In this document: piece by piece, positions 8,310 through 21,695 of the stretch
How the letters are laid out: each line of letters begins with the position of its first letter
Numbering within the stretch: the first letter of the stretch is position 1
Sequence record: NC_047884.1
From: Escherichia phage saus132
DNA length: 64,000 nt
Direction: 5' to 3' (one strand)
The notes under the pieces: generated by a model
The model's input: the letters and a program-made list of their open reading frames with translations, nothing else
What the model was told of the DNA's origin: nothing
Databases searched by the model: none
Program-made: the position numbers and the translations under genes

Positions 8310-9351
8310 CGTTAAAGTGATGAATCAGCCAGTCTACTGCGTTTACTGCTTCGTCCATACGAACTTTGTAGTCCGGGGAGTCGATGTAAACAGTACGCCC
8401 TTCAGGGAACTGATTTGGAAATTCTTTCTTCATCTGCTCGAACAGTTCAGAAGTAATTGAACGATCGGAGTTAATACGTAAACCATCATCTACCCACTTG
8501 ACAGTAGGCGCTAGAACAATTACTAAATCGTAATGTTCTTCTTTTGCAATTGCTGTAACCACAGGGTTCTTACTATGTTCATAAAGTCTGTGGTAGAACT
8601 CAGTAATAAAAGCATTTGTATCCACAAACATGATCTTATTTGCAGTACGTTCTGCTTCAAACTCTAGCTCTTTGTGTCTGAACGCAATTTTACTATAGTC
8701 TTCGCTGGTAAGCAGATTTTCGTTACCAACTAGATCAACTTCACAATACGTTCGGCCATATTCTTCTACCCACGAAGTGTTGTATAGCTTCGCAAGGTAT
8801 TTTGTTAAAGTAGTCTTTCCTGAGCTTTCAGTCCCAATGATTACAACCTTACGCACGTAATCTTTACGAACTACGCTAGGAAGAAACTCCCAATACTTCA
8901 TAAGATCATTACGAATCATTGTAGCTGAGATTGGAACACGAGTCCGATCAGAATCTACAATATAATGACCAAACTTCGGCAGATATTTCTTATATTCTGC
9001 ATCATAGTCTAGTTCGCTAGAGAAAATGGTGATCTCAGGCAAATGTCCGTAATTTTCATTAAGGATTCTAGCATATTCCGGCCAACCATTCGGATATTCA
9101 GGAATATCATCTTCAATAGTGTACTCTACCGAAATGTGCTCAATATCCGCGTAAGTTTGTTCTAACCAACGAAGTCGATTCTTTAACTGTAATACTTCCT
9201 GATCACGTGTGTTCTGCTTATCCAACCAACGATTATCATGACTAACTACAACAATAACTCGTTCACACATAGTTGCTGCTGTGTTTATTAGGTTAATATG
9301 ACCACGCGTTAATGGTGCGAACTTACCAATTACTAGACCAGTCTTAATCAT
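8296..9351 (-). CDS. nadR: NadR-like bifunctional NMN adenylyltransferase / ribosylnicotinamide kinase
   Basis: N-terminal GKFAPLTRGH nucleotidyltransferase motif; C-terminal P-loop GTESSGKTTL; start taken at ATG after SD, not the track start inside the promoter. Confidence 0.75.
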   Translation of the reverse strand: MIKTGLVIGKFAPLTRGHINLINTAATMCERVIVVVSHDNRWLDKQNTRDQEVLQLKNRLRWLEQTYADIEHISVEYTIEDDIPEYPNGWPEYARILNENYGHLPEITIFSSELDYDAEYKKYLPKFGHYIVDSDRTRVPISATMIRNDLMKYWEFLPSVVRKDYVRKVVIIGTESSGKTTLTKYLAKLYNTSWVEEYGRTYCEVDLVGNENLLTSEDYSKIAFRHKELEFEAERTANKIMFVDTNAFITEFYHRLYEHSKNPVVTAIAKEEHYDLVIVLAPTVKWVDDGLRINSDRSITSELFEQMKKEFPNQFPEGRTVYIDSPDYKVRMDEAVNAVDWLIHHFNVGEF

Positions 9352-16837: not shown

Positions 16838-17326
16838 TTACATCTCAGCAAGTTCTTGCTCAGTAATTACAGTATTGCATAGAGCATCAACTTCTTCGTT
16901 ACCACGAATACCTGAGTGACCTTTAACCTTAACAAAGGTTGGGTTAGTATCATGGAAATTAATATACTGTTGAGTTAGTTTAAACGCTTCTTGCCAGAGT
17001 TCTAGATTAAGAGGAGTTTCACCATCTCCTTTCTTCCATCCTTTCTTCTGCCAAGACCACATCCAGCTTTCCATACCATTTTTGCAGTAAGCAGAATCAG
17101 TGTATATAATTACTGGACGATTATCTTTCTTAGTAGACCAACGAAGAACTTCAACAATTGCAGTGAGTTCCATTTCATTGTTAGTAGTTTTAGGACTGAA
17201 GCCAGATTTAGAGCCAATACGATCATCATTATCATTATAGACAACGAATCCCCACGCACCTAAACCAGGATTGCCTTTACATGCACCATCTGTATATATG
17301 TGGAAAACCGACATTATTTGCTCCAA
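16838..17326 (-). CDS. rnhA: ribonuclease H
   Basis: YTDGAC, EMEL, YTDSAY and GHSGxxGNEEVDALC motifs of RNase HI. Confidence 0.85.
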   Translation of the reverse strand: MEQIMSVFHIYTDGACKGNPGLGAWGFVVYNDNDDRIGSKSGFSPKTTNNEMELTAIVEVLRWSTKKDNRPVIIYTDSAYCKNGMESWMWSWQKKGWKKGDGETPLNLELWQEAFKLTQQYINFHDTNPTFVKVKGHSGIRGNEEVDALCNTVITEQELAEM

Positions 17327-17583
17327 TCAATTTCAAGCCAAAAACCTTCACGCTGTTCATACTTAGCTTCCACAACATAACCTAGTTTGCTAAGTTTTTG
17401 CATAACGCTATTTCTAGCGTTTTCTGAGTATTCAGTCAATCCCTGGATGTGACAGTTAAATTCTTTATCTTTGATAGCTTTGTCAATCTCTACGGCAATA
17501 AGTGATTCTAAATCAAGTACTTCCTTTTTAATACTAGCAATAGTATTTTGTTTTGCTTCTAAAGCAGATAAAAGAATAGACAT
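17314..17583 (-). CDS. hypothetical protein (89 aa)
   Basis: ORF. Confidence 0.45.
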   Translation of the reverse strand: MSILLSALEAKQNTIASIKKEVLDLESLIAVEIDKAIKDKEFNCHIQGLTEYSENARNSVMQKLSKLGYVVEAKYEQREGFWLEIDWSK

Positions 17584-17585
17584 AT

Positions 17586-18164
17586 TTATTCTCCAATTAC
17601 TAAAACATCATGTTGAGAAGATACACCACACATATAATCTGCACAATGCGTAAAAGCCAGATCAATGATTTCAAATATATCATCTACATCTAAATCTGTG
17701 GCTCGACAATCCGCAATAGCTAAACCTGTACGAATACTGGAAAGTACATCTTCTCCTCCACAGCCTACACCGGCATATTCAACTTCTAGGATAGAAGCAT
17801 TAGATTGGAAAATAAAGATTCTTCCTTTGTAGAGCATAATAAATTGTCCCAGATTAGGTTCAGCATATTTTTCATTTTTCTTTTCGCCAAAATCTTTCTG
17901 GTTAAACATATCACGTAATTTAGGTACTATTTCCGTATATAAATATTTATCATCGGAAATATCTGCTAAACGTGGTGGTATAGTAAAGCTATGCTCTAGT
18001 AATTGTCCCATGTAGAAGGAACTAGTGTATCCGAAGTACAAATCATCGGAGATTTTGAATACTTTCGGATTTTTAACCAGCAGTTTCGTATAGCCATTAG
18101 AACCCATACGATCACCAGCTAAGTATACTTTATCTTTATATTTAAATGCTACTATGGCTGTCAT
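17586..18164 (-). CDS. Ntn-hydrolase, HslV/proteasome-beta-like protein (192 aa)
   Basis: N-terminal MTAIVAF (Thr2 nucleophile position), VYLAGD and AGVGCGG motifs resemble HslV. Confidence 0.4.
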   Translation of the reverse strand: MTAIVAFKYKDKVYLAGDRMGSNGYTKLLVKNPKVFKISDDLYFGYTSSFYMGQLLEHSFTIPPRLADISDDKYLYTEIVPKLRDMFNQKDFGEKKNEKYAEPNLGQFIMLYKGRIFIFQSNASILEVEYAGVGCGGEDVLSSIRTGLAIADCRATDLDVDDIFEIIDLAFTHCADYMCGVSSQHDVLVIGE

Positions 18165-18194
18165 TATTAAATCCTTCTGTCAAATTAGAAGTAT

Positions 18195-18223
18195 ATTATA
18201 TTTGAATTTCACTAAGTAAGCAA
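18195..18223 (-). promoter_or_regulatory. early promoter cassette
   Basis: Minus strand -35 TTGCTT, 17 bp, -10 TATAAT. Confidence 0.6.
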
Positions 18224-18262
18224 ATGAAATTTAAATATAATAGCCCCGAAGGGCTATTTGAA

Positions 18263-18616
18263 TTAGATTATAATCAAGATTATTAGGGCGTATGTCAGAT
18301 AATGCAGTAACTGATCAAATCCTAAAGCTATCCAAAACTTAGCATCGCTTATAGCATATTTACAGCGTTGTGCTTTCCAATAATCTATAATAAAGTGTAG
18401 AATTAATTCCATAATAGCTAAAGCTATAGACATTCCTGGTGATGTGAATAGGATTAGAATTGCAAATGTTAACCCAGCATGTACTAGCGAATGGGTTAAT
18501 AATGGAAGTTTCCACCCTATTTTATGCGTCTTTCTTAGCATATATGGTGTTTGGAGTGGATAATCGGCCATAAAATGTTTTAGAAAGAATATGACAAATA
18601 ATAGTATAATTAACAT
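18263..18616 (-). CDS. small integral membrane protein (117 aa)
   Basis: Several hydrophobic helices. Confidence 0.5.
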   Translation of the reverse strand: MLIILLFVIFFLKHFMADYPLQTPYMLRKTHKIGWKLPLLTHSLVHAGLTFAILILFTSPGMSIALAIMELILHFIIDYWKAQRCKYAISDAKFWIALGFDQLLHYLTYALIILIII

Positions 18617-21212: not shown

Positions 21213-21695
21213 TTATAAACTATCAAGCTCCAATAGTTTAGCATCGCGCCATTCTATAGCATCCTCTAATTCTTTAAATGTTTTAGTATGTTTTACACCT
21301 TTCCTAGCTATTTGGACTTGATAAGATCCACTTGCTTTTTGGTGTATATTTTTAATACCTAACTTATTGTCCTTATGTGCTCCAACGTTCTTTCCATTAC
21401 TAAATCTGTTAGAGGCTAGTAAATTAATTGCTCTATTATCATGACGTATTCTATTATCATGATCTACTTCTTTTGGGATGTACCCATGCGTAATATAGAA
21501 TGCTAGGATATGTGCGTAGTATTTTGTACCTCTTACCTGCATTACTATGTATCCTGAGCATTTTTCCAAAGAGCCTGCCTCTTTGCCTGCAAACTTAGTA
21601 TTAAATGATTTATCTTCTCTAGGTTTGTGGGTAAAGATTCCGGTTTCTGGATTATAGTCAAATAACTCAGCTATTTCTTTGTATTTTTCTTCCAT
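21213..21695 (-). CDS. HNH homing endonuclease
   Basis: HNH core DHDNRIRHDNRAINLLASN; lies between nrdA and nrdB. Confidence 0.7.
   Translation of the reverse strand: MEEKYKEIAELFDYNPETGIFTHKPREDKSFNTKFAGKEAGSLEKCSGYIVMQVRGTKYYAHILAFYITHGYIPKEVDHDNRIRHDNRAINLLASNRFSNGKNVGAHKDNKLGIKNIHQKASGSYQVQIARKGVKHTKTFKELEDAIEWRDAKLLELDSL

What the first reader, a model, noticed from the sequence alone, without database searches (positions are those of the whole stretch)
17586..18164. HslV/proteasome-beta-like Ntn hydrolase in the early region
Seen in sequence: MTAIVAF at the N-terminus (Thr directly after Met, as in HslV where Thr is the nucleophile), VYLAGD, and a Gly-rich AGVGCGG segment in the position of the HslV GSGG loop. 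Inference: a phage-encoded peptidase of the proteasome family with unknown target, possibly pairing with host HslU/ClpY-type ATPases. Assignment is by short motifs only.
Basis: partly seen in the sequence, partly recalled or inferred. Interest (0 to 1): 0.45.

Follow-up and report, generated by a model that had tools for sequence, protein, structure and literature searches.

The report
Phage-encoded proteasome-like threonine peptidase gene
This T5-like phage carries a small accessory early gene for a proteasome/HslV-type enzyme with an intact catalytic site; the gene is real and correctly recognised, but databases already annotate it this way and nobody has tested what it does.

Summary
A 192-aa ORF on the minus strand (17586..18164) starts MTAIVAF and contains VYLAGD and AGVGCGG.

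It belongs to the proteasome family:
- Pfam PF00227 scores 38.3 bits (cut-off 22.4), and PHROG 1040 "peptidase HslV family" gives 1e-21.
- Thr2, Asp18, Lys34 and Gly45 are present in 168 of 168 aligned sequences. The HslV Ser of the GSG loop is Cys (62%) or Ser (32%).

It is not an HslV orthologue. NCBIfam's HslV models do not match it, while E. coli HslV scores 304 bits. HslU-pocket residues are only partly kept, and the pore loop is longer. No AAA+ partner is conserved in 60 viral or 23 bacterial loci.

T5 itself lacks the gene. It sits in a variable slot between thy and rnh, as the first gene after a conserved T5-type early promoter.

The exact protein is already named "Proteasome subunit" or "peptidase HslV family". 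Phage-borne proteasome homologues were described in silico in 2021 (PMC8665760).

Verdict: correct family assignment, already known, function untested, HslU pairing unsupported.

The parts
17586..18164 (-). Coding sequence of the 192-aa proteasome-like Ntn hydrolase (stop codon included)
18159..18161 (-). Codon of Thr2, which becomes Thr1 (the predicted N-terminal nucleophile) once the initiator Met is removed
   Evidence: Thr in 168/168 aligned sequences; 160 of 167 retrieved proteins start with MT
18111..18113 (-). Codon of Asp18 (Asp17 in mature numbering)
   Evidence: 168/168 conserved; aligns with HslV Asp17
18063..18065 (-). Codon of Lys34 (Lys33 in mature numbering)
   Evidence: 168/168 conserved; aligns with HslV Lys33
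18030..18032 (-). Codon of Gly45, aligned with HslV Gly45, the counterpart of the proteasome oxyanion-hole Gly47; it opens the family motif G-Y-T-S-S-F-[RY]-M-G-Q
   Evidence: 168/168 conserved; aligns with HslV Gly45; the role of Gly47 is from PMC8665760
17757..17765 (-). Codons of Gly134-Cys135-Gly136, the counterpart of the HslV/proteasome G-S-G loop, with Cys in place of HslV Ser124 (proteasome Ser129, from my own knowledge)
   Evidence: Gly134 168/168, Gly136 166/168, position 135 Cys 104 / Ser 53 / Ala 6; aligned to HslV GSG
18195..18223 (-). Sigma-70-type early promoter: -35 TTGCTT (18223-18218), 17-nt spacer, -10 TATAAT (18200-18195)
   Evidence: Read. It aligns column for column with the element T5 annotates as a promoter upstream of rnh, and with LVR16A and KEY. 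The generic scanner did not flag it because TTGCTT matches only 3 of 6 positions of TTGACA
18239..18258 (-). GC-rich hairpin (8-bp stem AATAGCCC/GGGCTATT, loop TTCG) that closes the upstream thy-DUF3307 unit
   Evidence: Sequence; conserved in T5, LVR16A and KEY. The terminator scan did not call it because the T-run is weak
18172..18176 (-). Shine-Dalgarno AAGGA, 7 nt upstream of the ATG
   Evidence: Read
17314..17583 (-). orf89, function unknown. Its start lies 2 nt after the stop of the proteasome-like gene, with GGAG inside the end of that gene, so the two are probably translationally coupled
   Evidence: phrog_13270 with no function. It is found in about 216 T5-like records against about 124 for the proteasome-like gene, so it is not an obligate partner
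16838..17314 (-). rnh (RNase H), the last gene of the same transcription unit; its ATG overlaps the orf89 stop
   Evidence: Pfam RNase_H 1.1e-30; 477-nt CDS in related records
18263..18616 (-). DUF3307 membrane protein, a second accessory ORF in the thy-rnh slot, upstream of the hairpin and so in a different transcription unit
   Evidence: Pfam DUF3307 4.8e-12; phrog_2470; absent from T5 and LVR16A

Best explanation
The gene encodes a catalytically competent member of the proteasome (MEROPS T1, Pfam PF00227) family of N-terminal-nucleophile hydrolases. It belongs to a large, mostly phage-borne clade of compact, propeptide-free subunits that is about equally distant from HslV, BPH and 20S beta. 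This fits 'group I' of Fuchs, Alva and Lupas 2021, and most resembles their AAH group.

Shown here:
- The fold.
- Invariant Thr1, Asp17, Lys33 and oxyanion Gly, and a G-[CS]-G loop.
- A start codon immediately before the Thr, with no possible upstream start.
- Position as the first cistron behind a conserved T5-type early promoter, followed by orf89 and rnh.
- Accessory status (absent from T5).

Inferred:
- Host methionine aminopeptidase removes the initiator Met, as it does for E. coli HslV (MTTIV...), exposing Thr1 as nucleophile and general base.
- Like its structurally characterised relatives, the subunit assembles into stacked homo-oligomeric rings with the active sites inside.
- It cleaves peptide bonds of unfolded or specific proteins early in infection, without a dedicated unfoldase and probably without host HslU.

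The substrate is unknown. My guess is host-takeover or protein-turnover proteolysis.
For: Family and fold:
- Pfam PF00227 scores above its gathering cut-off over the full length, and PHROG 1040 matches.
- The AF2 model has pLDDT 89.8 and pTM 0.87, with the order S1-S5, H1, H2, S6-S9, H3, H4, S10.
- Foldseek's top hits are HslV, BPH and 20S beta, with TM up to 0.70.

Active site:
- Thr2, Asp18, Lys34, Gly45 and Gly134 are conserved in 168/168 sequences. They are also invariant in a 100-sequence alignment whose members are 25-73% identical to the query.
- 160 of 167 retrieved proteins begin with MT.

Size of the clade:
- 841 cluster representatives at E<=1e-30.
- 367 IMG/VR loci and at least 25 viral structure clusters.

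Expression context:
- The promoter is homologous to the one T5 annotates.
- A Shine-Dalgarno site is present, and orf89 looks translationally coupled.

No unfoldase partner:
- The most frequent neighbours in 60 viral loci are portal, prohead protease, capsid, PhoH, DnaB and methylase genes, each in 11 loci or fewer.
- 23 bacterial loci share no neighbour.
- The window has no HslU-like gene.
- Fuchs et al. likewise report no co-occurring AAA+ protein.
Against: - No activity, oligomeric state or substrate can be tested here.
- BPH, one of the closest characterised relatives, was inert in all standard peptidase assays (PMC5777263). An intact active site therefore does not guarantee general protease activity.
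- The Ser-to-Cys change in the GSG loop has unknown consequences.
- Ring assembly is assumed from homology alone.
- The AAH assignment rests on taxonomic spread and architecture only, because the reference sequence WP_035979212 could not be retrieved.
- The family also occurs in Planctomycetes, a phylum the AAH row of their Table 1 does not list.
Confidence: 0.6

Rival explanations
1. One reading: the phage protein is a functional HslV analogue. It forms a dodecamer and docks onto the host HslU (ClpY) unfoldase, redirecting ATP-dependent proteolysis during infection.
For: HslV gives the best sequence-profile match among solved structures (E about 1e-10, against 3e-7 for BPH and 7e-7 for bacterial 20S beta) and the best Foldseek E-values. 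Two HslU-pocket positions have conserved counterparts: HslV Phe54 aligns with family Phe50, and Lys80 with Arg84. The E. coli and Salmonella hosts have hslVU (for E. coli). JGI and RefSeq label relatives as the HslV/ClpQ type.
Against: There is no hit to either NCBIfam HslV equivalog model at E<=1, whereas E. coli HslV scores 303.8 and 288.2 bits. HslV Phe57 becomes an invariant Gly, Gln114 becomes Glu, Lys28 becomes a hydrophobic residue (the role of Lys28 is from my memory only), and Arg86/Arg89/Lys90 become Lys/Gly/Glu. Four residues after Gly45 are deleted, and the pore loop is 9 residues longer. The literature links a short pore loop to HslU gating. Relatives occur in Actinobacteria, where the Table 1 row for HslV in PMC8665760 shows no occurrence. 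BPH, a descendant of HslV, did not bind HslU.
Confidence: 0.15
2. It is a specialised, non-degradative Ntn enzyme. Thr1 would be used for a single specific reaction on one target, such as site-specific processing, transpeptidation or ligation as in connectase, or an amidase reaction, rather than for bulk proteolysis.
For: The family has its own nearly invariant motif, G-Y-T-S-S-F-[RY]-M-G-Q, at the start of H1, which lies next to the substrate channel; HslV has no equivalent motif at the aligned positions. BPH is inert on generic substrates. Connectase shows that the fold can act as a ligase. Some members carry long acidic C-terminal extensions that could bind partners.
Confidence: 0.15
3. It is a decoy or poison subunit. 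It would co-assemble with host HslV, or titrate a host factor, to block host proteolysis, and its own catalysis would be irrelevant.
For: None directly. The idea rests only on the shared fold with host HslV and on the precedent of phage inhibitors of host proteases (my own knowledge).
Against: The catalytic residues are invariant across sequences only 25-40% identical to the query, which would not be expected if catalysis were dispensable. With 19% identity to E. coli HslV, mixed rings are unlikely. The family also occurs in hosts from phyla that, per PMC8665760 Table 1, lack HslV.
Confidence: 0.05

Closest known systems
HslV (ClpQ), the peptidase of the bacterial HslUV protease
   Different: Only 19% identity. 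It fails both NCBIfam HslV equivalog models. There is no adjacent hslU. The Ser124 position is Cys. Four residues after Gly45 are deleted, the pore loop is 9 residues longer, the Arg86/Arg89/Lys90 basic cluster is missing, and HslU-pocket residues are only partly kept.
AAH, CPH and PPH: the phage-associated 'group I' proteasome homologues of Fuchs, Alva and Lupas 2021 (PMC8665760)
   Same: Propeptide-free compact subunits related to HslV and BPH, found in Caudovirales phages and scattered bacteria, with no known function and no AAA+ partner. The taxonomic spread of relatives (alpha-proteobacteria, Actinobacteria, Firmicutes, phages) best fits AAH.
   Different: It is not PPH, which has about 140 residues and lacks helix H2; this protein has 192 residues and a predicted H2 at residues 71-89. 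Membership of AAH as against CPH could not be checked by sequence. The family also occurs in Planctomycetes, a phylum the AAH row does not list.
BPH (Betaproteobacteria proteasome homologue; PDB 5ovs, 5ovu)
   Different: Profile E-value is only 3e-7. BPH's run of acidic pore-loop residues is absent here: the segment reads NQKDFGEKKNEKYAEPNLGQ, and the family's median net charge over it is -1. BPH is a chromosomal gene linked to stress operons, not a phage gene.
20S proteasome beta subunits (archaeal, bacterial, eukaryotic)
   Different: No propeptide, no alpha-subunit partner and no C-terminal S12/H5 elements. The NCBIfam 20S beta models score 12-15 bits against cut-offs of 192-224.

Membership tests
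Proteasome-like Ntn hydrolases (Pfam PF00227 / MEROPS T1) | Score above the Pfam gathering cut-off over the whole domain | tested here: met
   38.3 bits against 22.4, covering profile positions 5-188 of 189. Only 22 of 100 family members reach E<=1e-3, so the clade sits at the edge of the model.
Proteasome-like Ntn hydrolases (Pfam PF00227 / MEROPS T1) | Alpha-beta-beta-alpha sandwich with two helix pairs (H1/H2, H3/H4) flanking the sheets | tested here: met
Proteasome-like Ntn hydrolases (Pfam PF00227 / MEROPS T1) | N-terminal nucleophile Thr (or Ser) plus Asp17, Lys33 and the oxyanion Gly47 | tested here: met
   Thr2, Asp18, Lys34 and Gly45 are 168/168 conserved and in register with HslV.
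Proteasome-like Ntn hydrolases (Pfam PF00227 / MEROPS T1) | Gly-Ser-Gly loop (Ser129 in the proteasome, Ser124 in HslV) | tested here: inconclusive
   The loop and both glycines are conserved, but the Ser position is Cys in the query and in 62% of the family, Ser in 32% and Ala in 4%.
Proteasome-like Ntn hydrolases (Pfam PF00227 / MEROPS T1) | Peptidase activity and ring-shaped homo-oligomer | not testable with these tools
   Needs biochemistry or multimer modelling.
HslV (ClpQ) proper | Match to the NCBIfam equivalog models NF003964 / TIGR03692 above cut-off | tested here: not met
   No hit at E<=1. The E. coli HslV control scores 303.8 bits (cut-off 137) and 288.2 bits (cut-off 157.75).
HslV (ClpQ) proper | Partner HslU unfoldase encoded alongside | tested here: not met
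   No HslU-like ORF in the window or in the first 50 kb of SE24; the only hit is a 45-aa P-loop match. No AAA+ unfoldase among recurrent neighbours in 60 viral and 23 bacterial loci.
HslV (ClpQ) proper | Conserved pocket for the HslU C-terminal tail (Phe54, Phe57, Gln114, Ala79/Lys80) and the pore cluster Arg86/Arg89/Lys90 | tested here: inconclusive
   From the hhalign mapping and family frequencies: Phe54 aligns with Phe (93%), Lys80 with Arg/Lys (74%), Phe57 with Gly (97%), Gln114 with Glu, and Arg86/Arg89/Lys90 with Lys/Gly/Glu. The alignment is profile-based, not structural.
PPH (Fuchs et al. 2021) | About 140 residues, lacking helix H2 | tested here: not met
   192 aa, with H2 predicted at residues 71-89. 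Definition.
AAH (Fuchs et al. 2021) | Compact group I subunit without propeptide, insertions or S12/H5 | tested here: met
   Secondary-structure order; MT start; definition.
AAH (Fuchs et al. 2021) | Clusters by sequence with the AAH representative WP_035979212 | not testable with these tools
   The reference sequence could not be retrieved, and two look-ups of 19 relatives did not contain that accession. The taxonomic spread is compatible.
Connectase | Two-helix insertion between S3 and S4, and loss of the first helix pair | tested here: not met

The most novel reading that the evidence does not exclude
This would be a virus-encoded proteasome-like chamber that works without any unfoldase. 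It would be matured only by host Met removal and made from a strong early promoter. It would selectively destroy a host protein, such as a defence or stress-response factor, or a phage pre-early protein to time the infection programme. That would make it the first viral member of the proteasome family with a demonstrated function, in a genetically tractable E. coli/Salmonella phage.
Probability: 0.2. Interest if true: 0.65.

Novelty: already known. Interest (0 to 1): 0.3.

Why it matters
Proteasome-family enzymes in viruses have been catalogued by sequence analysis (PMC8665760), but I found no experimental work on any of them in the searchable literature.

T5-like phages would make a convenient model:
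- The hosts are E. coli and Salmonella.
- The gene is naturally present in about a third of sequenced relatives and absent from T5 itself, which amounts to a natural knock-out comparison.
- A BASEL-collection phage, Bas30 (TrudiRoth), carries a near-identical copy in the same 90%-identity cluster.

As a genome-scan finding, though, it adds nothing to current annotation. The value here is the negative result on HslV orthology and HslU pairing, and the description of the active-site variant (Cys in the GSG loop).

Tried and rejected
- Plus-strand reading of the stated coordinates: full of stops. The gene is on the minus strand.
- Generic promoter and terminator scan: it flagged neither the promoter nor the hairpin, and promoter-like sites were not enriched (15 found, 13.5 expected). 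The promoter call therefore rests on homology to T5's annotated element.
- Conserved small partner: blastp among the immediate neighbours in the window and in phages KEY, 2L372D, Vibrio 2.058.O and 121Q found none. orf89 occurs in more T5-like phages than the proteasome-like gene does, so it was rejected as an obligate partner.
- Defence-system models (PADLOC): no hit for the gene.
- Redox pair idea (Cys3 with Cys135): no co-variation. Counts are C/C 74, C/S 49 and A/C 26. Rejected.
- Direct assignment to the AAH group through accession look-ups: failed. The paper's one held supplement file is short (2,178 characters) and I did not open it.
- Literature searches for experimental work on a phage HslV-like or proteasome homologue found nothing beyond the 2021 bioinformatic survey.
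- Not attempted: multimer modelling, which the tools do not offer, and measuring active-site geometry in the model, because its coordinates are not exposed.

Full report
**Observation**

The stated coordinates hold a 192-aa ORF on the minus strand (17586..18164). The plus-strand translation is full of stops. The ATG is the first possible start after an in-frame TGA five codons upstream, so there is no room for a propeptide.

**Source of the window**

In the 2.7-kb stretch I searched, the window is 100% identical to 'Bacteriophage T5-like poul149' (MF431738) and Salmonella phage GRNsp8, and 99% identical to Epseptimavirus SE24 (Demerecviridae, Markadamsvirinae).

**Family and fold**

- Pfam's Proteasome model (PF00227) matches at 38.3 bits against a gathering cut-off of 22.4, over profile positions 5-188 of 189.
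- PHROG 1040, 'peptidase HslV family', matches at 1.1e-21.
- An AlphaFold2 model built on 18 homologues is confident (mean pLDDT 89.8, pTM 0.87). It shows the strand and helix order of a compact proteasome-type subunit: five N-terminal strands, H1 (50-59), H2 (71-89), four strands, H3 (137-153), H4 (160-177) and a final strand.
- Foldseek against the PDB returns HslV from four organisms, BPH and 20S beta subunits at E about 1e-9 to 1e-7. The best TM-score is 0.70, to BPH.

**Active site**

An exhaustive profile search found 6704 cluster representatives at E<=1e-3 and 841 at E<=1e-30. Of the 167 proteins retrieved, 160 begin with Met-Thr.

In a 168-sequence alignment, Thr2, Asp18, Lys34, Gly45, Gly106 and Gly134 are present in every sequence, and Gly136 in 166. 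A curated 100-sequence alignment, whose members are 25-73% identical to the query, gives the same invariant set.

Once the Met is removed these are Thr1, Asp17 and Lys33, in exact register with E. coli HslV and with the catalytic triad described for the family in PMC8665760.

The residue aligned with the HslV/proteasome Ser of the G-S-G loop is Cys in the query. Across the family it is Cys 104, Ser 53 and Ala 6. This is a tolerated variant, not a loss.

The family also has its own near-invariant motif, G-Y-T-S-S-F-[RY]-M-G-Q, at the start of H1.

That host methionine aminopeptidase removes the Met is an inference. It rests on established MetAP specificity for small second residues, and on the precedent of E. 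coli HslV, whose gene also encodes Thr directly after the initiator codon.

**Is it an HslV?**

HslV is the nearest solved family by sequence profile (E about 1e-10, against 3e-7 for BPH and 7e-7 for a bacterial 20S beta). hhalign to E. coli HslV gives 96.8% probability at 19% identity. But it is not an HslV orthologue:

- Neither NCBIfam equivalog model for HslV matches at E<=1. The E. coli control scores 303.8 and 288.2 bits.
- Of the HslV residues that accommodate the HslU C-terminal tail (Phe54, Phe57, Gln114, Ala79/Lys80; PMC6429459), only Phe54 and Lys80 have conserved counterparts. Phe57 aligns with an invariant Gly and Gln114 with Glu.
- The basic pore cluster Arg86/Arg89/Lys90, needed for HslV activity (PMC5777263), aligns with Lys/Gly/Glu.
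- Four residues after Gly45 are deleted.
- The H2-S7 'pore loop' is 9 residues longer. The literature links a short pore loop to gating by HslU, and a longer one to unfoldase-independent BPH.
- Relatives occur in Actinobacteria such as Actinoallomurus and Amycolatopsis. The Table 1 row for HslV in PMC8665760 shows no occurrence in that phylum.

**Partner search**

- tblastn with E. coli HslU finds only a 45-residue P-loop match in the window, at 8719-8853. The matching SE24 coordinates fall inside its annotated nicotinamide-nucleotide adenylyltransferase gene.
- In 60 IMG/VR loci of the family, no neighbour family is shared by more than 11 loci. The recurrent ones are portal, S78 prohead protease, capsid, PhoH, DnaB and a DNA methylase.
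- In 23 bacterial loci nothing is shared.
- The immediate small neighbours in five phages are unrelated to each other.

This agrees with the published statement that no AAA+ partner co-occurs with these homologues.

**Place among known groups**

Fuchs, Alva and Lupas (2021) described phage-associated 'group I' proteasome homologues (PPH, AAH, CPH) radiating from BPH and HslV. All lack propeptides, and none has a known function.

This protein is not PPH, which has about 140 residues and no H2. Its architecture, and the taxonomic spread of its relatives (alpha-proteobacteria, Actinobacteria, Firmicutes, phages), best fit AAH. I could not verify this by sequence.

**Genomic anatomy**

T5 itself lacks the gene. 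Its rnh (T5.091) follows thy (T5.092) after a 133-nt spacer that carries an annotated promoter. The thy-rnh slot differs between relatives:

| Phage | Order of genes in the slot |
|---|---|
| T5 | thy, hairpin + promoter, rnh |
| This window and Eps7 | thy, DUF3307 membrane ORF, hairpin + promoter, proteasome-like gene, orf89, rnh |
| LVR16A | thy, hairpin + promoter, an unrelated 84-aa ORF, orf89, rnh |
| Erwinia phage KEY | thy, a different 89-aa ORF, a 51%-identical homologue, a 62-aa ORF, rnh |

- The hairpin and the TTGCTT-17 nt-TATAAT promoter upstream of the gene align column for column with T5's annotated promoter, and with LVR16A and KEY. The gene is therefore the first cistron of a conserved early transcription unit.
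- It has an AAGGA ribosome-binding site 7 nt upstream. orf89 starts 2 nt after its stop, and rnh overlaps the orf89 stop.
- The three accessory ORFs have 32-35% GC, against 38-41% for the flanking core genes.
- About 124 T5-like records carry the gene, out of 418 that match the flanking DNA.

It is thus a dispensable accessory early gene.

**Mechanism**

The best-supported reading has these steps:
1. Early transcription from the T5-type promoter.
2. Met excision, which exposes Thr1.
3. Self-assembly into HslV/BPH-like stacked rings.
4. Thr1-dependent peptide-bond hydrolysis inside the chamber, without a dedicated unfoldase.

The fold, the active site and the expression context are shown here. 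Maturation, assembly, activity and target are inferred.

Rivals:
- Docking onto host HslU. It is not excluded, but several membership features fail.
- A specialised non-degradative Ntn reaction. It is suggested by the family-specific motif and by BPH being inert in standard assays.
- A decoy role. It is unlikely, given the invariant catalytic residues.

**Novelty**

The exact protein is already in public databases as 'Proteasome subunit' (UniRef), 'peptidase HslV family' (RefSeq), 'putative proteasome' and 'protease'. 121Q's homologue is annotated 'ClpYQ-like'.

Phage proteasome homologues as a class were published in 2021. I found no experimental study of any of them.

The finding is therefore correct but already known. 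The remaining interest lies in the unknown function and in how tractable this phage-host pair is.

Noticed in passing
L005:4001-5454 (Aeromonas phage 2L372D, gp210 and gp211): Two different proteasome homologues lie side by side. gp210 (183 aa) belongs to this family. gp211 (294 aa, starting VTTIAY, with a G-S-G-S loop) is a separate subfamily with a long acidic C-terminal extension, and scores slightly closer to the HslV models (32 bits). This could be a two-component system.
   Followed up: partly
Proteins P0031, P0036, P0041, P0047, P0061, P0074, P0096: Some family members are 300-388 aa long, with a normal N-terminal proteasome-like domain followed by a 120-200-residue, very acidic extension of unknown function. 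The T5-like protein lacks it.
   Followed up: no
window 17314-18616, compared with L002 (T5), L031 (LVR16A), L003 (Eps7) and L004 (KEY): The thy-rnh junction is a hot spot for accessory genes in T5-like phages. T5 has none, LVR16A has an 84-aa ORF plus orf89, this phage has DUF3307, the proteasome-like gene and orf89, and KEY has other small ORFs. A conserved hairpin-plus-promoter element marks the boundary. The inserted ORFs have lower GC (32-35%) than the core genes (38-41%).
   Followed up: yes
window 18263-18616 (-): A DUF3307 membrane protein (PHROG 2470, category 'moron, auxiliary metabolic gene and host takeover'). It is also found in Aeromonas, Vibrio, Erwinia and Rhizobium phages, and its function is unknown.
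   Followed up: partly
window 21213-21695 (-): A 160-aa ORF with an H-N-H motif lies between nrdB and nrdA. It sits where SE24 and T5 annotate a homing endonuclease (hegH in T5).
   Followed up: partly
L113:25337-25936 (SE24 gp036, outside this window); L007:3065-3673 (121Q gene 473): T5-like phages also carry a gene annotated 'ATP-dependent protease' (200 aa); I did not check which family it belongs to. In jumbo phage 121Q a gene annotated 'ClpP-like' lies two genes away from the proteasome-like gene. These phages may therefore carry two chamber-type peptidases and no unfoldase of their own.
   Followed up: no
Alignment A2: Only 22 of 100 family members reach Pfam PF00227 at E<=1e-3. Most bacterial relatives are labelled 'hypothetical protein'. 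The clade is poorly covered by current domain models.
   Followed up: partly
L006:2498-2995 (Vibrio phage 2.058.O): A phage-encoded peptide deformylase lies about 1 kb upstream of that phage's homologue. Exposing Thr1 requires deformylation followed by Met removal, so the proximity may or may not be meaningful.
   Followed up: no
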